21,388 nt of DNA from a virus (lineage: Duplodnaviria; Heunggongvirae; Uroviricota; Caudoviricetes), in IMG/VR virus record IMGVR_UViG_3300029080_000073, one strand, 5' to 3'. Position numbers and translations under genes: made by a program. This document shows positions 546-14,642 of this stretch, piece by piece. The notes below the pieces were generated by a model. The model was given only the letters and a program-made list of their open reading frames with translations. It searched no databases and was not told the origin of the DNA. Numbering within the stretch: the stretch's first letter is position 1; the number at the start of each line of letters is the position of its first letter.

Positions 546-1598
546 TTAACCTGATACAGATCGCCATGCACCATTAATATAAATCTGAGCCTGTTTGTAA
601 TACACGCCACCGATATTGTCTGCAGAGTTACGGCCAGTATCCTGAACATTAATGCCTGACAAAACACAACCAGAAGGTGCTCGAAACGTCCAGCTGTGCT
701 CGTTCTGGTCCTGAGTAAACGTGACTTCCGAAACAAGCAGTTCGGTATTGTCGAAACCACAGACCGGATCAAAGACAATCACCCGCTGGTTGGGTTGCCA
801 CAGCGTACCGTTACCCTGTCGCCAGCCCTGCACCACATAGGTGGTTTCATCCGTCCGCGCCGCCCGTTGCCGGGCTTCAAAGTCAGCACGCGCAATACAG
901 CCTGCCCCCGTAGCCTGCCCTGTCTGCCTGATATACATCGGACGGTAACGGGCAATAAATGCGTCCTCTGTGCGGGCCCTCAGCGCGGTGGTGGTGGCCT
1001 CACCGAAATCATCGTCGTTTCCGGCACGCTGCCCCGCCACCTGGTAAACAGAAAACCGCTCCCGGATACTCTTCTCCGTATCGCAGGAAAGGATGTTTTC
1101 CCCGAGCACCAGCGCAGTATGCGCCCGCGTTGAGCCAATACCGCCAATCACCAGCCTGCCGTGCGGGTCGTCGTAAGCCAGTGCCTGCTGCTGACCGAGT
1201 ATTTTGTTGATTACCTCAATCACCGTTTCACCATGATCGGGCTGGACGTCAGGAATAACACCCGACGGCGCACCGCTGTTCACCACCTCAATGCCGAAGG
1301 GCGCAGCAAGCGCCTGCGCAATCTGTACCAGCGATCGTCCGTTAAACTGTGTCGGTTCGGCTGCACAGTCAATCAGGTCAGCAGTCAGACTACGTCCGGC
1401 AATACCGGTGCTGACCGAACGGGCATCGTAACGAACGGGGGTCGCCTCCACCCAGCCGGTGATCACCAGTTCATCACCAATCAGCACCTCCACTTTTGAA
1501 CCGTTTTTAATGCGCGGCTGAAGCGTGGTGATACCCCAGCTCGCGGACATCTTTCCCGGTGGGCTCATCAAACTCCAGTACGGAGAGTGTCTCGCCAT
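546..1598 (-). CDS. baseplate hub / late control D family tail protein (P2 gpD / Mu gp44-like)
   Basis: 350-aa ORF directly downstream of the tail tube gene; N-terminal pattern resembles gpD/VgrG-N family as remembered; family assignment is by recall only. Confidence 0.4.
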   Translation of the reverse strand: MARHSPYWSLMSPPGKMSASWGITTLQPRIKNGSKVEVLIGDELVITGWVEATPVRYDARSVSTGIAGRSLTADLIDCAAEPTQFNGRSLVQIAQALAAPFGIEVVNSGAPSGVIPDVQPDHGETVIEVINKILGQQQALAYDDPHGRLVIGGIGSTRAHTALVLGENILSCDTEKSIRERFSVYQVAGQRAGNDDDFGEATTTALRARTEDAFIARYRPMYIRQTGQATGAGCIARADFEARQRAARTDETTYVVQGWRQGNGTLWQPNQRVIVFDPVCGFDNTELLVSEVTFTQDQNEHSWTFRAPSGCVLSGINVQDTGRNSADNIGGVYYKQAQIYINGAWRSVSG

Positions 1599-1634
1599 GA
1601 GCGGTAATCGGTTTCTTTAACTCAAGCTCTTTCA

Positions 1635-1991
1635 TTACTGGTAATCCCCTTCTTCACCGTGGAACTCAAGATCGACCGTGCCTTCTTCGGCATTATGGTT
1701 CGCTTCGCCGTGCAGCCAGGCAGACGACAGTACATAGACCTGACCGTTCGCCAGCTCGGCAGTGATGGTCATCTCATCAGACGAGGTGATTTTGCTCACC
1801 GGAAAATTCTTCGGCACCTTGAAGGTCCCTTTGACATAAGGCGCACGGTGAGTTTCCTTGCGGTCCACTGAACCGTCCAGGCCGATGATGTCATCATTGA
1901 CCGTCCTGTTCATGGGCACCTCAATGCCGCCGGTCAGTGATAGCTGCTGACCGTCAATTTTGAAATAACAGGTTCCCCCGATACGGGCCAT
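1635..1991 (-). CDS. contractile-tail tube protein
   Basis: 118-aa ORF immediately after the sheath-like ORF (stop/start abut at 1991), with size and position typical of Mu gpM / P2 FII tube proteins. Confidence 0.5.
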   Translation of the reverse strand: MARIGGTCYFKIDGQQLSLTGGIEVPMNRTVNDDIIGLDGSVDRKETHRAPYVKGTFKVPKNFPVSKITSSDEMTITAELANGQVYVLSSAWLHGEANHNAEEGTVDLEFHGEEGDYQ

Positions 1992-2767
1992 TATGCAGAC
2001 TCCTCTGAATACTGAAGACGGAACTGGTTAACCACGGCAAAGACACGCAACTGGTTAACATAGTCAGGCGGGAACAGCGTGTTCAGGCGGTTCGGATCGC
2101 TGGCATCACGCTCCACAACCAGGTACTGCTTGAACAGTTCGTAGTTTTCCACGATCCCCGCACGCTCGAGCTGACGGTAGGTTGCCAGCAGTTCCCCTTT
2201 GATCACCGCCGGGGTGACAATCGCCTGACCGGGACCAAAGCGGGTACCGTCACTGGCAAGCTTGTGACGCCCGTACTTACTGGTAATGACGGATTTCAGT
2301 TTGCGCAGTACATACGCGCTGGTATGCAGCGTCTCGCTGTCGAGGTAGCTGTTATCCGCAACCCCGTAAGCGTTTTTCCTGTACGTGGTGACATCACGCT
2401 GAATGCGCAGCACCCCGCTTTCGACATACGCCGTTGCCACGCCATGAGACAGCAGGGTCTGCTGCTCGGTCATTGTGAACCGTTTCCCCTTCGGCGCAGG
2501 CAGCATACCCACCAGCTCACCGGTCTGCGTGGGACGTGCCGGATCGTTGCGGATAAACACTGCCGCGCGGGCGGTACGGCTGGCTGCCAGCTCGTCGGCA
2601 GGCGTCTGGGTGTCTTTTTCGTACCCCGCCAGGGTAATGTGCTGCTGGTTAAACTGGTCACCTGCGGTCACCAGTTCTGACAGCGTGCCGGTCTTTGCCG
2701 TATACACATGACCATACAGCTGACGCGCATAGCTCCAGCGACCGCTGGTATCGTTCATCTCGGTCAC
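1991..2767 (-). pseudogene. tail sheath protein, C-terminal portion only (truncated)
   Basis: 258-aa ORF directly upstream of the tube gene with a sheath-like C-terminus; too short for a sheath and overlaps the terminase fragment in another frame. Confidence 0.45.
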
Positions 2768-3332
2768 CGTCCTCCGGACGGCTCATGCTTTGAGCATGTA
2801 CTTCAATACCAAATGCTTCACGCAATGGCTCCGTGCGTTGCGCCATCAGTCTGGCTGGACGAAAAACTTCCCACGCCTGTTTCTCTGTTGTGGCCCCGGA
2901 ATACACTTCAGCGCCAAATTCATCATCGCAGGCAAACATATACAGACCAACGCCAGCAGACATTGCTGATTTCCCGTTTTTACGGGGTATTTCGTTGTAA
3001 GCCTCGCGAAATCGACGCAGACCGCTCTTTTTTCTCACCCACCCAAACACAACACAGATACAGAACAACTGCCAGGGTTCAAGCGTAATGGGCATCCGCT
3101 TAAATGCCCACTCCCCTTTGGTGTGTGGCAAAAGCTGGATAAATTTCGCCACCCGCTCAGCTTTATCTTTATCAAATTTAAACGGATAGTTTTTTTTAAC
3201 TGAATTTTCCAGGTCATCAAGGTGACGCTGGCAGGCTAGAACGACATAACGGCAAACCTGAATTTTTCCGCGAACCACGTCACGTGCATACTGATTTGCG
3301 GCATTAACGTTCACGTAATTTTTTCGTGTCAT
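2658..3332 (-). pseudogene. terminase large subunit, N-terminal ATPase fragment (truncated)
   Basis: Follows the small terminase gene with overlapping stop/start; Walker A-like PRKNGKS present; only 224 aa with a non-protein-like tail ([11 protein letters not shown]...), no nuclease domain. Confidence 0.6.
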
Positions 3333-9200: not shown

Positions 9201-9608
9201 TTACCTCCAGATGCGTTGCTGGAATGTGCGGGACGGACGCGGTGGGCGTTCGGAATAAGGGAGCCTGACATAGATTATCCAGTGACGATAATCGAGGCTG
9301 AGGGCTTTCTTAATCTCGTATCCGTGTCTGCGGTAGCGCTGAATCAGCCATTCAGCCTGTTCTTCGGTGCAGGGATCGTGCTGATACCAGTCAGATTTGA
9401 ATGCATGAGAACGCCGCCCGTGCCTGCTGGCAGGGGCGGCAGAGTTATCCGAATTGTAAAATTTGGTATCGTGCGCCATCTGTTTTCTCTGCTGGCGCAG
9501 CAGGTGCCAGTTGTTCAGGCTGACGGATGGATTGTAAACCAGAACGACCAGAAAAAACAAAACCCGCCGAAGCGGGTTAAGTGCGGGTGCGTTGAGGATG
9601 CCTGACAC
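9201..9608 (-). CDS. hypothetical protein between hok and the DUF968 gene (Rem-like position)
   Basis: ORF track only; likely true start at internal MAHDTKF (about 9479). Confidence 0.3.
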   Translation of the reverse strand: MSGILNAPALNPLRRVLFFLVVLVYNPSVSLNNWHLLRQQRKQMAHDTKFYNSDNSAAPASRHGRRSHAFKSDWYQHDPCTEEQAEWLIQRYRRHGYEIKKALSLDYRHWIIYVRLPYSERPPRPSRTFQQRIWR

Positions 9609-9646
9609 ATCAGCGGTGGCGAGGGATTTCTCCCCCGCCGGGTCTC

Positions 9647-9802
9647 TTACTCCTCAGGTTCGTAAGCTGTGAAGACAGCGACCTCCGTCTGGCCGGTTCG
9701 GATTCGTACCTCGCAGAGGTCTTTCCTCGTTACCAGTGCCGTCACTATGACGGTTAAACAGATGACGATCAGGGCGATTAACATCGCCTTTTGCTGCTTC
9801 AT
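9647..9802 (-). CDS. hok: Hok/Gef family type I toxin (51 aa)
   Basis: MKQQKAMLIALIVICLTVIVTALVTRKDLCEVRIRTGQTEVAVFTAYEPEE matches the Hok/Gef family throughout (TM helix plus conserved C-terminal tail). Confidence 0.9.
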   Translation of the reverse strand: MKQQKAMLIALIVICLTVIVTALVTRKDLCEVRIRTGQTEVAVFTAYEPEE

Positions 9803-9859
9803 AGCCTGCTTCTCCTTGCCTTTCGGCACGTAAGAGGCTAACCTACATTTGTGAGACAT
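9647..9859 (-). CDS. mok: mok-like overlapping reading frame
   Basis: In-frame upstream extension (MSHKCRLASYVPKGKEKQA) of the hok ORF, as in hok/mok/sok loci. Confidence 0.55.
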   Translation of the reverse strand: MSHKCRLASYVPKGKEKQAMKQQKAMLIALIVICLTVIVTALVTRKDLCEVRIRTGQTEVAVFTAYEPEE

Positions 9860-9975
9860 AGATTGGGCCTCAGATTAATGTTAAGCGTCTTGCAGGACGC
9901 GTAATGTTAACTGGGGCTTTTCTCTATCTGCCTTTTGGTGTTCATGCCTGAGACAGATAGCCTCAAGCACCCGCA
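9860..9975 (+). ncRNA. sok: hok mRNA leader / predicted Sok antisense RNA region (exact ends not mapped)
   Basis: Region upstream of mok carries GCUUGAGGCU-like 5' end and local hairpins expected of the hok leader; Sok would lie on the opposite strand here. Confidence 0.3.
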
Positions 9976-10061
9976 GTTATTCTACTTAACTAAGATTTCC
10001 CCGCAAACCGTTTTTGTCCGGCACAGTAAATATCCAACTAAACCAATGGCGTTCGCTGTAT

Positions 10062-10241
10062 TTACCGCCAGCATTCAATGCACATGACCGCCATGAACAC
10101 CCCTAAAAAAAGGGCATTTATATGTCCAAACATTAATATCAAAACATCAATTTTTTCCATATACCTTGCTGTGAAGATGATGGGCATACATGATGCGAAC
10201 AACCAGAACGCAACAAACAAAAACTGCAATGCGTTTTTCAT
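10062..10241 (-). CDS. hypothetical small membrane protein (59 aa), AT-rich
   Basis: ATG preceded by GGGGGA; two hydrophobic segments; track ORF 10062..10280 uses an upstream GTG. Confidence 0.3.
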   Translation of the reverse strand: MKNALQFLFVAFWLFASCMPIIFTARYMEKIDVLILMFGHINALFLGVFMAVMCIECWR

Positions 10242-10361
10242 TATTCCCCCTACAATCAATGTGCAATAACATTTAAACACACCTCAATTTGGCCGGACAT
10301 ATAAATATCTAAACCAGAAAAAATCACTTACATAGCGTTACAAACTCTTTAGTCTAAATAT

Positions 10362-13734: not shown

Positions 13735-14136
13735 ATGATGAACGCCCTAGAAGTATCTATGTACAGAATCAGCAAGCTTCTTCAGGAAACTGGATGGAGC
13801 CAGGCTGAGCTTGCCCGTAGAATTGGTGTGACACAACAAACTGTTCAACAATGGGTCAGCGGTAAGGCTACACCTAAAGCCTCAAGTTTGGATAAACTGG
13901 TTGAGGTTACAGGGCATCCATTGCATTGGTTTTTATTGCCTCCTGAAGAGGGGGAGCAAATTTTCACCCCTGACACGATGAAAATTGGTCCTCGTCAACG
14001 CGAACTGCTCCAGGCTTTTAGTGCGTTTCCAGAGGAAGACCAAGAAAAAATGCTTCAAGAAATCAAAGACAAGAAAAAATCAATGGAAGAAACCATTGCC
14101 CGGTGGTTGGCGGCACAAAAAAGCCGCCGGGCGTGA
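13735..14136 (+). CDS. DicA/cI-like XRE-family HTH repressor
   Basis: HTH (SQAELARRIGVTQQTVQQWVSG) plus C-terminal region laid out as in DicA; ATG sits about 7 bp after a TAAAAT -10-like hexamer, suggesting a leaderless mRNA. Confidence 0.7.
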   Translation: MMNALEVSMYRISKLLQETGWSQAELARRIGVTQQTVQQWVSGKATPKASSLDKLVEVTGHPLHWFLLPPEEGEQIFTPDTMKIGPRQRELLQAFSAFPEEDQEKMLQEIKDKKKSMEETIARWLAAQKSRRA

Positions 14137-14163
14137 CCACAGTACAAGAAGAGGAGTTATGCC

Positions 14164-14355
14164 ATGAGTACAGCCCTTTCTCCGATAGTTTCAGAATTCG
14201 AAACTACCGAACAAGAAAACAGTTACAACGAATGGTTACGCGCTAAAGTGGCGTCAAGCCTTGCAGACCCTCGTCCCTCAATTCCACATGATGAGGTAAT
14301 GGCTGAAATGGAGAATCTTATTGCTCAAATTGCTGTAACTAACAGGAGCGAGTAA
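14164..14355 (+). CDS. type II antitoxin (ParD/RelB-like)
   Basis: 63-aa ORF whose stop overlaps the toxin start (ATGA), directly upstream of a ParE/RelE-fold toxin. Confidence 0.55.
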   Translation: MSTALSPIVSEFETTEQENSYNEWLRAKVASSLADPRPSIPHDEVMAEMENLIAQIAVTNRSE

Positions 14356-14642
14356 TGTTACCCATTTTGTGGCTACCATCTGCTCGCGATGATTTGCGTC
14401 AGATCGTAGCCTATATTGCTAAGGAAAATATTCCTGCAGCACGCAGACTAAAAATACGGATTGAAACGTCTGTTTTAGCCCTCTCTGAGCATCCATATCT
14501 ATATCCGCCAAGTGATCGAGTATCCGGTTTGCGGGAAATTGTGGTTCACCCTAATTATATCGTTTTGTACCGAGTAGCAGCTTCAAGCATTGAAATTGCA
14601 AATATTGTGCATGCCCGCCGACAATTTCCCTTCCCTATCTGA
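14355..14642 (+). CDS. type II toxin, ParE/RelE superfamily
   Basis: 95 aa; DDLRQIVAYIAKENIPAARRL ... GLREIVVHPNYIVLYRV ... IANIVHARR matches the ParE/RelE pattern. Confidence 0.7.
   Translation: MLPILWLPSARDDLRQIVAYIAKENIPAARRLKIRIETSVLALSEHPYLYPPSDRVSGLREIVVHPNYIVLYRVAASSIEIANIVHARRQFPFPI

What the first reader, a model, noticed from the sequence alone, without database searches (positions are those of the whole stretch)
9590..10000. Complete-looking hok/mok/sok type I toxin-antitoxin locus inside the prophage
The Hok reading frame is intact and preceded by an in-frame mok extension and a leader starting GCUUGAGGCU-like, as in plasmid R1 hok. An intact locus could stabilise the defective prophage or contribute to abortive infection or persistence.
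Basis: partly seen in the sequence, partly recalled or inferred. Interest (0 to 1): 0.5.

Follow-up and report, generated by a model that had tools for sequence, protein, structure and literature searches.

The report
Intact hokD-type hok/mok/sok toxin-antitoxin locus
This is a complete copy of the well-known hok/mok/sok RNA-controlled toxin-antitoxin module (hokD/hokW type) in a decayed lambdoid prophage of E. coli; the same locus is annotated in most E. coli genomes, so it is real but ordinary.

Summary
On the minus strand, window 9553..10007 holds a full hok/mok/sok type I toxin-antitoxin locus.

- **Toxin:** an intact 51-aa Hok ORF (Pfam HOK_GEF, E = 3e-23).
- **mok:** a 70-codon ORF starting 57 nt upstream, in frame with hok.
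- **Leader:** it matches Rfam RF01794 at 120 bits against a gathering score of 59.
- **Fold-back:** the 5' tac box (GGGUGCUUGAGG) pairs with a 3' fbi box (CCUCAACGCACCC) in the minimum-energy fold.
- **3' end:** a protective 3'-UTR hairpin and an intrinsic terminator.
- **Sok:** a gene on the plus strand whose -35, spacer and -10 are identical to those of sokW of phage 933W/Sp5. That -10 has been tested by mutation in a published study.

The locus is not new. Megablast finds it at 80% coverage or more in 3907 of 5426 complete E. coli genomes, annotated hokD. It is 92% identical to hokW/mokW/sokW of 933W, and the Sp5 copy was shown in 2021 to be a working type I TA system. The in-frame mok is the commonest arrangement among 53 related loci. 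The host prophage is indeed defective.

Mechanism is inferred by homology. The biological role here is untested: prophage retention, help with lysis, or phage exclusion. Low interest; already known.

The parts
9979..10007 (-). hok promoter: -10 TAGAAT (9984..9979) and a weak -35 (TTGCGG/TTTGCG, 10007..10001). The transcript starts at G9972.
   Evidence: Read from the sequence. The -10 aligns with TAGAAT/TATAAT of the 933W, Rac-phage and hokC copies. The consensus scan did not report it because the -35 is below its threshold.
9553..9972 (-). Full-length hok mRNA, about 420 nt. The position of mRNA nucleotide n in the window is 9973 - n.
   Evidence: The 5' end is taken from position 1 of the Rfam model, the 3' end from the terminator. 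MFE -167.3 kcal/mol, z = -6.1 against 100 shuffles.
9961..9972 (-). tac (translational activator) box, GGGUGCUUGAGG, mRNA nt 1-12.
   Evidence: Pairs with fbi in the MFE of the full-length RNA. Pairs with ucb in the Rfam consensus structure. Pairs with nt 19-29 (the metastable hairpin) in the MFE of the 3'-shortened RNA.
9913..9919 (-). ucb (upstream complementary box, anti-SD), AAGCCCC, nt 54-60.
   Evidence: In the full-length MFE, G56-C58 and C60 pair with G102 and G104-C106, the mok Shine-Dalgarno region. In the open fold it pairs with tac.
9868..9871 (-). mok Shine-Dalgarno GAGG, nt 102-105, with 8 nt between it and the mok AUG.
   Evidence: Sequence. Sequestered by ucb in the closed fold. 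It has the same C·A mismatch as the R1-type copy.
9647..9859 (-). mok ORF, 70 codons, in frame with hok, so its product is Hok with 19 extra N-terminal residues.
   Evidence: mokW of 933W is annotated with the same in-frame arrangement.
9834..9838 (-). dcb (downstream complementary box), GCCUC, nt 135-139. It pairs with the mok SD region GAGGC in the open fold.
   Evidence: Rfam consensus structure and the constrained fold. Element definitions are from PMC9841398.
9812..9815 (-). hok Shine-Dalgarno GGAG, nt 158-161.
   Evidence: Sequence. In the full-length MFE, G158, G159, A160 and G161 pair with C143, U141, U140 and C139.
9647..9802 (-). hok ORF, 51 aa plus stop.
   Evidence: Pfam HOK_GEF 3e-23. 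Annotated hokD (WP_000813254.1) in matching E. coli records. 92% identical to HokW and 42% to R1 Hok.
9661..9664 (-). UACG motif at hok codon 47 (Tyr). This is the TadA A-to-I editing site reported for hokD; the edited A would be 9663, recoding Tyr to Cys.
   Evidence: Sequence (nt 309-312). The motif and hokD editing are described in PMC5630033.
9618..9639 (-). 3'-UTR hairpin GGCGGGGGA-GAAA-UCCCUCGCC, nt 334-355. It is the likely 3' end protector of the processed (truncated) mRNA.
   Evidence: Present in all folds. It is at the same position as the R1 hairpin whose mutations destabilise the truncated mRNA (PMC9841398).
9585..9597 (-). fbi (fold-back inhibition) box, CCUCAACGCACCC, nt 376-388.
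   Evidence: Pairs with nt 1-12 in the MFE. The pairing is kept in 35 related loci. A formal count of the inner six pairs gave 98% of cells paired and 7 double-sided changes at pair 4.
9551..9578 (-). Intrinsic terminator of hok mRNA: stem AACCCGC-UUCG-GCGGGUU, then UUGUUUUUUC.
   Evidence: It is the only terminator-like site reported in 9400..10200.
9816..9844 (+). Sok promoter: -35 TTGCCT (9816..9821), 17-nt spacer, -10 TAACCT (9839..9844).
   Evidence: No base differs from the 933W copy over this stretch. The -10 corresponds to the bases changed in the published promoter-less sokW construct (primers YO-421/422; phenotype). The consensus scan did not report it: my count is 7 of 12 matches, and the R1 Sok promoter also has 7 of 12.
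9851..9921 (+). Sok antisense RNA, about 71 nt. The 5' tail (9851..9866) is complementary to the mok start codon region. The hairpin (9867..9917) covers the mok SD and ucb. The RNA ends in a U-rich tail.
   Evidence: The ends were mapped from the sokW misc_RNA annotation of 933W. Fold -31.6 kcal/mol, z = -5.0. No transcript data exist for this copy.

Best explanation
Window 9553..10007 (minus strand) is an intact hokD/hokW-type hok-mok-sok type I toxin-antitoxin module. It lies in the region between the replication genes and the Q antiterminator of a defective lambdoid prophage, and points the same way as the early-right operon.

Proposed mechanism, by homology with R1 hok/sok and Sp5 hokW-sokW:

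1. A weak constitutive promoter makes a stable mRNA of about 420 nt.
2. In the full-length form, the 5' tac box pairs with the 3' fbi box and ucb masks the mok ribosome-binding site. The RNA is then neither translated nor bound by Sok.
3. Slow 3' trimming back to the 3'-UTR hairpin removes fbi. tac then pairs with ucb, which frees the mok ribosome-binding site and the Sok target.
4. While the short-lived Sok RNA (about 71 nt, from its own stronger convergent promoter) is present, it pairs with the mok start region, blocks mok translation and marks the duplex for RNase III.
5. When Sok supply stops, mok is translated. This opens the hok start site, and Hok, a 51-aa inner-membrane peptide, depolarises and kills the cell.

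Shown here: every sequence element and the pairings. Inferred: transcription, processing, toxicity and the biological role.
For: - Identity: Rfam RF01794, 120 bits, full-length match. Pfam HOK_GEF 3e-23.
- Fold-back: the full-length MFE contains tac/fbi (12 pairs, one bulge) and ucb/mok-SD pairing, z = -6.1. An R1-type plasmid copy folded the same way gives the same architecture.
- Conservation: tac/fbi is kept in 35 loci from Escherichia, Kluyvera, Photorhabdus, Pantoea and plasmids. Compensatory changes occur at position 4 (U:A to C:G) and position 12 (G:C to A:U).
- Switch: the open tac/ucb fold of the shortened RNA lies only 2 kcal/mol above its MFE (-135.2 against -137.2).
- Sok: the promoter is identical to that of sokW, whose mutation unmasks toxicity. 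The Sok hairpin has z = -5.0.
- Distribution: the locus is 99.6% identical to copies annotated hokD, and is present in 3907 of 5426 genomes at 80% coverage or more. It is 92% identical to hokW/mokW/sokW of 933W.
- Toxin: the Hok protein is identical to the relBE-linked K-12-type HokD. HokD was among the control sequences in a recent toxicity assay in which 42 of 45 homologs were toxic and the three non-toxic ones were other sequences.
- Experiment on a relative: hokW-sokW was shown to be a working type I TA.
Against: - There are no expression or toxicity data for this copy.
- The MFE of the 3'-shortened RNA gives the closed form with the 5' metastable hairpin, not the open form. The R1 control behaves the same way, so this test is uninformative.
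- The consensus scan did not report the hok promoter, the Sok promoter or the Sok terminator.
- Chromosomal hokA, hokB and hokC loci were reported not to give post-segregational killing or rifampicin activation (summarised). A complete-looking locus need not behave like the plasmid one.
- NCBIfam Hok models score below their curated cut-offs: 48.5 against 73, and 40.2 against 89.
Confidence: 0.9

Rival explanations
1. The locus is structurally intact but behaves like the chromosomal hok loci. It is transcribed and kept silent by Sok, and it gives no post-segregational killing, so it does not stabilise the prophage. It persists because it is harmless, or because it is hard to delete.
For: [quoted passage not shown] The locus occurs at a median of 2 and up to 9 places per genome, so Sok from paralogous copies might cover loss of one copy.
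Against: All regulatory elements are conserved with compensatory changes, which argues for selection on regulated expression. The close relative hokW-sokW gives a measurable phenotype. The Sok 5' tail (mRNA nt 107-124) is the most variable leader segment between this copy and the 933W and Rac-phage copies, which would limit cross-protection.
Confidence: 0.3
2. The locus acts mainly during prophage induction, as shown for hokW-sokW of Sp5. Sok disappears, Hok is made, and it speeds membrane damage and lysis. In this defective prophage that role would be vestigial.
For: After mitomycin C, sokW RNA vanished, HokW appeared in a RecA-dependent way about 1 h before endolysin, and deletion halved phage release. 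In the window hok points the same way as the cro/O/Q operon, so induced read-through would run head-on into the Sok promoter.
Against: The prophage has lost most head and tail genes and cannot release virions. Its repressor is a 133-aa DicA-like HTH protein for which the family scans found only HTH-type matches. hokW sits elsewhere in its phage, near the right end.
Confidence: 0.2
3. The locus serves as an abortive-infection defence. Infection by a lytic phage shuts off host transcription, the labile Sok decays, and Hok kills the cell before the phage completes its cycle.
For: R1 hok-sok on a high-copy plasmid reduced T4 plating efficiency by 42% and plaque size by about 85%, as cited in PMC8621323. 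The mechanism needs only the elements shown to be present.
Against: That effect was modest and came from a multicopy plasmid. The bioRxiv survey carries a section heading stating that hok is not enriched near defence systems (outline only; the section was not read). Nothing was tested for hokD-type loci.
Confidence: 0.15
4. The locus is a decayed, non-functional remnant that only looks complete.
For: It lies in a prophage with large deletions. The K-12 hokD copy is a known example of a hok gene that lost its leader.
Against: No element is missing or mutated. The ORFs are open, and the tac/fbi, ucb/SD and SD/dcb pairings, the Sok promoter and the Sok hairpin are all intact. The locus differs at only two bases (9978 and 9890) from the closest E. 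coli copies, and neither is in a helix or a promoter hexamer.
Confidence: 0.03

Closest known systems
hokW / mokW / sokW of Stx2 phage 933W and Sakai prophage Sp5 (AF125520; Takada et al. 2021, PMC8621323)
   Same: 92% nucleotide identity over 436 nt. Hok is 47/51 identical. Both have a 70-codon mok in frame with hok, the same tac and fbi boxes, identical Sok promoter hexamers and spacer, and the same long Sok hairpin.
   Different: The C-terminus is ...FTAYEPEE here and ...FVDYESEK in HokW. Several changes lie in the Sok 5' tail and mok N-terminus (nt 107-124). The window copy has an intrinsic terminator right after fbi that the 933W copy lacks. It lies between the replication genes and Q, whereas hokW lies near the right end of the phage genome.
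hokD (relF) of the Qin prophage, E. coli K-12 type
   Same: The 51-aa protein is identical (L008). The downstream neighbourhood is of the same kind, with a DUF968 gene next.
   Different: In the K-12-type copy, relB-relE replace everything upstream of about 17 nt before the hok ATG, so tac, ucb, mok and sok are absent. The window copy keeps all of them.
hok/mok/sok of plasmid R1 (parB), the reference system
   Same: Same order and spacing of elements: the leader is 170 nt here and 168 in the R1-type copy. Both have tac/fbi fold-back, ucb/mok-SD pairing with the same C·A mismatch, a Sok promoter overlapping dcb and the hok SD, and a 3'-UTR hairpin.
   Different: Hok is only 42% identical. The Sok/target hairpin carries an extra insert (16 nt against the Rfam consensus; also visible against the R1-type copy). 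tac is GGGUGC... here and GGCGC... in R1, with the matching change in fbi. One is on a chromosomal prophage, the other on a conjugative plasmid.
hokC (gef) / mokC / sokC of the E. coli chromosome
   Same: mok is in frame with hok at the same 57-nt offset (L017, 69-aa product). The tac box is the same and fbi is UCUUCAACGCACCC.
   Different: The tool's best-segment identity to Hok is 82%. The leader is shorter, 150 nt, and lacks the hairpin insert. It is not in a prophage. In the K-12-type copy L017 the 3' UTR diverges after about 24 nt and no fbi is found; from my own knowledge this fits the insertion sequence reported downstream of K-12 hokC.

Membership tests
[quoted passage not shown] | Small Hok/Gef-family membrane toxin ORF (about 50 aa) | tested here: met
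   51-aa ORF at 9647..9802(-). Pfam PF01848 E = 3e-23, 81.6 bits against a cut-off of 22, covering profile positions 1-42/42.
[quoted passage not shown] | Overlapping upstream mok reading frame with its own Shine-Dalgarno, to which hok translation is coupled | tested here: met
   ORF 9647..9859(-), with GAGG and 8 nt between it and the AUG. An ATG at the same -57/-58 position is present in nearly all of the 53 related loci. Coupling itself was not tested.
[quoted passage not shown] | cis-encoded antisense Sok RNA with its own promoter and terminator, complementary to the mok translation start region | tested here: met
   The promoter at 9816..9844(+) is identical to that of sokW, whose -10 was tested by mutation. 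Hairpin plus U-tail, z = -5.0. The RNA overlaps the mok SD and AUG. This is met at sequence level only; no transcript data.
[quoted passage not shown] | 5'-3' fold-back (tac/fbi) that locks the full-length mRNA | tested here: met
   nt 1-12 pair with nt 376-388 in the MFE. The pairing is kept with compensatory changes in related loci.
[quoted passage not shown] | Alternative pairings tac/ucb and mok-SD/dcb (open form) against ucb/mok-SD (closed form) | tested here: met
   The closed form is in the MFE. All seven tac/ucb pairs are canonical and the leader fits the Rfam consensus structure. The open form is 2 kcal/mol above the MFE. Free-energy prediction does not choose the open form for the shortened RNA, but it fails the same way for the R1 control.
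[quoted passage not shown] | Slow 3' processing of a stable mRNA, a labile Sok, and RNase III cleavage of the duplex | not testable with these tools
   Needs northern blots and a rifampicin chase. A 3'-UTR hairpin at the expected position is present.
[quoted passage not shown] | Hok kills or arrests cells when Sok is absent | not tested
   Not tested for this copy. The protein is identical to K-12-type HokD. HokD was among the control sequences in an assay where 42 of 45 homologs were toxic and the three non-toxic ones were other sequences. HokW, 92% identical, is toxic.
Rfam RF01794 ('sok antitoxin, CssrC') | Score at or above the family's gathering score | tested here: met
   120.1 bits against 59, full model. 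The match is on the hok-sense strand and runs from the hok mRNA 5' end to the hok start codon, so it locates the hok leader. Sok is the reverse complement of part of it.
NCBIfam Hok models (NF007279 Hok subfamily, NF007290 HokA) | Score at or above the curated cut-off | tested here: not met
   48.5 against 73, and 40.2 against 89. These models are built on other Hok subgroups. Matching RefSeq records name this exact-length gene hokD.

The most novel reading that the evidence does not exclude
Because mok is in frame with hok here, every ribosome that starts at mok makes a 70-aa Hok with a 19-residue basic N-terminal extension. That longer protein could be a second, functionally distinct product, for example with different membrane insertion or toxicity, rather than a by-product of coupling.

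In addition, the locus lies inside the early-right operon, pointing the same way. Derepression of the prophage could therefore silence the convergent Sok promoter by transcriptional collision and so tie Hok release to prophage derepression.

Neither idea is excluded or supported by the data here.
Probability: 0.12. Interest if true: 0.4.

Novelty: already known. Interest (0 to 1): 0.1.

Why it matters
It matters little as a discovery. The locus type was annotated in phage 933W as mokW/hokW/sokW and is named hokD in RefSeq. It occurs in most complete E. coli genomes, and a 92%-identical copy has been characterised experimentally.

It is useful in two ways:
- As an annotation, it is an intact version of hokD. 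The K-12 laboratory copy has lost its leader to relBE.
- It adds to the picture of a decayed prophage that keeps two addiction-type modules, hok/sok and a PaaA2/ParE pair, while having lost its virion genes.

Tried and rejected
1. Consensus promoter and terminator scan of 9400..10200. It found only the hok terminator and none of the three other signals. I did not take this as evidence of absence. The Sok promoter matches consensus at 7 of 12 positions, as the R1 Sok promoter does, and is identical to the mutationally tested sokW promoter.

2. Free-energy folding of 3'-shortened mRNAs, to see the open, translatable form. The MFE keeps the closed form with the 5' metastable hairpin. The R1-type control does the same, so the test cannot discriminate. 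I replaced it with a constrained fold, which gave a difference of 2 kcal/mol.

3. RNAduplex between 90-nt leader and 100-nt 3'-UTR segments, with shuffles. The duplexes extended over the whole segments, the z-scores were uninformative, and the script timed out. I replaced it with a targeted comparison of the 12-nt tac box with candidate fbi sites. The fbi site was chosen there as the best-pairing GC[AG]CC site, which biases the result towards pairing.

4. The first regular expression for tac missed loci with GAGA, GGGA or GAAG variants. I widened it.

5. NCBIfam Hok models were below their cut-offs. I judged this a limit of those subgroup models, given the Pfam, Rfam and RefSeq agreement.

6. 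I considered whether the in-frame mok was unusual. It is not: the offset is -57, in frame, in the majority of related loci. These include the hokC type, the Photorhabdus copies and the R1-type plasmid copy examined.

7. I did not use the large protein searches or structure prediction, because the identity was already settled.
Full report
**What is there**

The feature lies on the minus strand. Reading the reverse complement of 9520..10060 gives, in order:
- a -10-like TAGAAT (9984..9979);
- a transcript start at G9972 with the leader GGGUGCUUGAGGCUAUCUG...;
- an ATG at 9859 preceded by GAGG;
- a second ATG at 9802 preceded by GGAG;
- a stop at 9649..9647;
- a GC-rich hairpin, then the box CCUCAACGCACCC (9597..9585);
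- a hairpin followed by a U-run (9578..9551).

The ORF list shows a 70-aa ORF at 9647..9859(-). Its last 51 residues, from the second ATG, are MKQQKAMLIALIVICLTVIVTALVTRKDLCEVRIRTGQTEVAVFTAYEPEE.

Pfam places this in HOK_GEF (E = 3e-23, 81.6 bits against a cut-off of 22). Rfam gives a single hit in the whole window: RF01794 'sok', 9797..9972(-), full model, 120.1 bits against a gathering score of 59, E = 2.9e-27.

Two corrections apply. The locus is on the minus strand, and the quoted 9590-10000 clips it. 9590 falls inside the fbi box, and the terminator and the promoter -35 lie outside. The full extent is 9553..10007.

**A caveat on the Rfam hit**

The RF01794 match is in the hok-sense orientation. 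Model position 1 is the hok mRNA 5' end, and the model ends at the hok start codon. So it locates the hok leader, not Sok itself. Sok had to be placed separately.

**Sok**

On the plus strand, TTGCCT (9816..9821), a 17-nt spacer and TAACCT (9839..9844) precede a purine at 9851. Downstream, 9867..9917 forms a long imperfect hairpin followed by CUUUUCUCU. The 86-nt stretch 9840..9925 folds at -31.6 kcal/mol, z = -5.0.

In phage 933W the homologous 71 nt are annotated as SokW antisense RNA. Transferred to the window, this gives about 9851..9921.

The window and 933W do not differ at any base from the Sok -35 through the -10. The differences lie at mRNA nt 79, 107, 113, 117-120 and 124, and further away.

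In Takada et al. 2021, a construct with mutations in the sokW promoter lost protection against HokW, and sokW supplied in trans partly restored it (PMC8621323). The primers for that construct (YO-421/422) replace TAGGTTA by CCGGCTC on the hok strand. That is exactly this TAACCT -10.

The Sok 5' tail is complementary to the mok start codon, and its hairpin to the mok Shine-Dalgarno. Regulation is therefore through mok, as in R1.

**RNA switch elements**

Element definitions were taken from Le Rhun et al. (PMC9841398).
- In the full-length RNA, tac pairs with fbi and ucb masks the mok SD.
- In the 3'-truncated RNA, tac pairs with ucb and the mok SD region pairs with dcb.
- During transcription, tac sits in a metastable hairpin with the sequence just downstream.

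Results for the window:
- **Full-length RNA.** The minimum-energy fold of the 420-nt RNA (-167.3 kcal/mol, z = -6.1, no shuffle as good) pairs nt 1-12 with nt 376-388 with one bulged C. It also pairs G56-C58 and C60 (ucb) with G102 and G104-C106 (mok SD), leaving a C·A mismatch.
- **R1-type control.** An R1-type plasmid copy, fetched as a control, folds into the same architecture with the same mismatch.
- **Open form.** All seven tac/ucb pairs of the Rfam consensus are canonical in the window. Enforcing them on the shortened RNA costs only 2.0 kcal/mol relative to its MFE (-135.2 against -137.2). In the leader alone the cost is 1.2 kcal/mol.
- **Shortened RNA, unconstrained.** The fold gives the metastable 5' hairpin (nt 3-13 with 19-29) and stays closed. 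The R1 control does the same, so free-energy prediction cannot judge the switch.

**Comparative support**

A scan of one genome per species found 53 related loci in Escherichia, Shigella, Kluyvera, Pseudocitrobacter, Citrobacter, Photorhabdus, Pantoea and Erwinia.

In 35 loci with a recognisable leader, the tac box pairs with a box just upstream of the 3' end. Changes on both sides keep the pairing:

| Pair | Loci | Bases |
|---|---|---|
| Position 4 | Escherichia, Kluyvera | U:A |
| Position 4 | Photorhabdus, Pantoea, R1-type plasmid | C:G |
| Position 12 | window and most loci | G:C |
| Position 12 | L030-L033 and most Photorhabdus copies | A:U |

A formal count of the six inner pairs over 17 distinct sequences gave 98% of cells paired, and 7 sequences with a double-sided change at pair 4. 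Slid controls gave only 25-62% paired. The fbi site was picked as the best-pairing GC[AG]CC site, so these numbers lean towards pairing.

**The in-frame mok**

This is correct and not unusual.

The offset between the mok and hok ATGs is 57 nt, in frame, in the window and in most related loci. These include 933W (annotated mokW and hokW share a stop), the hokC type, the Photorhabdus and Pantoea copies, and the R1-type plasmid copy examined. A minority, including the Rac-phage type and some Kluyvera copies, have 58 nt and an out-of-frame mok of 55-69 codons.

**How common it is**

- Megablast of 9540..10010 against 5426 complete E. coli genomes finds a place covering at least 80% of the query in 3907 of them. 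The median is 2 places per genome and the maximum 9. The best matches are 99.6% identical and annotated 'hokD: type I toxin-antitoxin system toxin HokD'.
- The two differences from the best match are at 9978, between the -10 and the start, and at 9890, in a hairpin loop.
- 79 phage records match, including 933W and VT2-Sakai with mokW/hokW/sokW annotated.
- The K-12-type hokD has the identical protein but has relB-relE in place of the leader. The window copy is thus an intact version of that gene.

**Context**

The window is a lambdoid prophage.

| Strand | Genes, in window order |
|---|---|
| Plus (right-hand side) | integrase, 823-aa exonuclease, DUF1482 protein |
| Minus | YdaS/YdaT-like regulators, O-like replication protein, hok/sok, DUF968, RusA, Q-like antiterminator, TerB-like protein, endolysin, HNH endonuclease, small terminase |

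hok points the same way as this early-right operon.

The prophage is defective.
- The large-terminase ORF (2658..3332) covers only the N-terminal part of its profiles. It overlaps an ORF (1991..2767) that matches only the C-terminal half of a tail sheath (profile positions 243-493 of 493).
- A 350-aa ORF joins part of a baseplate hub to a tail-fibre end.
- Related prophages span about 38-40 kb where the window has about 20 kb.

**Mechanism and role**

The mechanism given under Best explanation is the R1 model transferred by homology. The sequence elements and pairings are shown here. Transcription, 3' processing, Sok lability, RNase III cleavage and killing are inferred.

The biological role is open.
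- Chromosomal hok loci were reported not to give post-segregational killing.
- hokW-sokW helped lysis and doubled phage release after induction.
- R1 hok-sok modestly inhibited T4.

In a prophage that can no longer make virions, retention of the element or mere persistence seems most likely. I cannot rank these roles firmly.

**Verdict**

The finding is real, correctly interpreted and complete, but already known. Interest is low.

Noticed in passing
window 13735..14642 (+): A second toxin-antitoxin module lies in the same prophage. A 63-aa PaaA2-type antitoxin (14164..14355; Pfam PF21217, 1e-21) overlaps by one base a 95-aa ParE toxin (14355..14642; PF05016, 7e-16). A 133-aa DicA-like HTH regulator (13735..14136) sits just upstream. 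From my own knowledge, this resembles the three-gene paaR-paaA-parE systems described in E. coli O157 prophages.
   Followed up: partly
window 546..3332 (-): The prophage has internal deletions in its virion genes. An N-terminal fragment of the large terminase (2658..3332) overlaps an ORF matching only the C-terminal half of a tail sheath (1991..2767). A 350-aa ORF (546..1598) joins part of a baseplate hub to a tail-fibre C-terminus. Related E. coli prophages are about 18 kb longer over the same stretch.
   Followed up: partly
window 9661..9664 (-), edited A at 9663: hok codon 47 is UAC followed by G. [quoted passage not shown] Editing would create the second cysteine of the Hok disulfide.
   Followed up: partly
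window 9797..9972 (-): The Rfam family RF01794, named 'sok antitoxin', matches the hok-sense strand from the hok mRNA 5' end to the hok start codon. A hit to it therefore marks the hok leader, and its strand is opposite to that of Sok. This matters for automated annotation.
   Followed up: yes
window 10062..10280 (-): A 72-codon ORF for a very hydrophobic small protein lies in an AT-rich stretch (35-38% G+C) just upstream of the hok promoter. It has no Pfam or PHROG match. It is not annotated in a 99.9%-identical E. coli record. I do not know whether it is a gene.
   Followed up: partly
window 9551..9578 (-): The hok terminator is the only intrinsic-terminator-like site found in 9400..10200. 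It lies within the early-right operon upstream of the Q-like gene. It may therefore also act as a terminator for prophage early transcription, as the nin-region terminators of lambda do. This is an inference only.
   Followed up: no
L019 (Acinetobacter idrijaensis, 275-nt contig), L024 (Xanthomonas pisi, 431-nt contig), hit H28 (Actinobacillus phage vB_Apl-pPE4): Near-identical hokD sequences (96-100% at protein level; 98% DNA identity for H28) appear in very short contigs of non-enterobacterial assemblies, and in a phage record assigned to Actinobacillus. E. coli DNA contamination or a wrong host assignment seems likely.
   Followed up: no
window 9847..9866 (mRNA nt 107-126), compared with L002 and L003: The Sok 5' tail and mok N-terminal codons are the most variable part of the leader between this copy and the 933W and Rac-phage copies, while the promoters and helices are conserved. 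This would limit cross-talk between the several copies in one genome (median 2, up to 9 places).
   Followed up: no
L017 (E. coli, hokC locus), 3' UTR: The K-12-type hokC copy diverges from the other hokC loci about 24 nt after the stop codon, and no fbi box is found. From my own knowledge, this fits the insertion sequence reported downstream of K-12 hokC.
   Followed up: no
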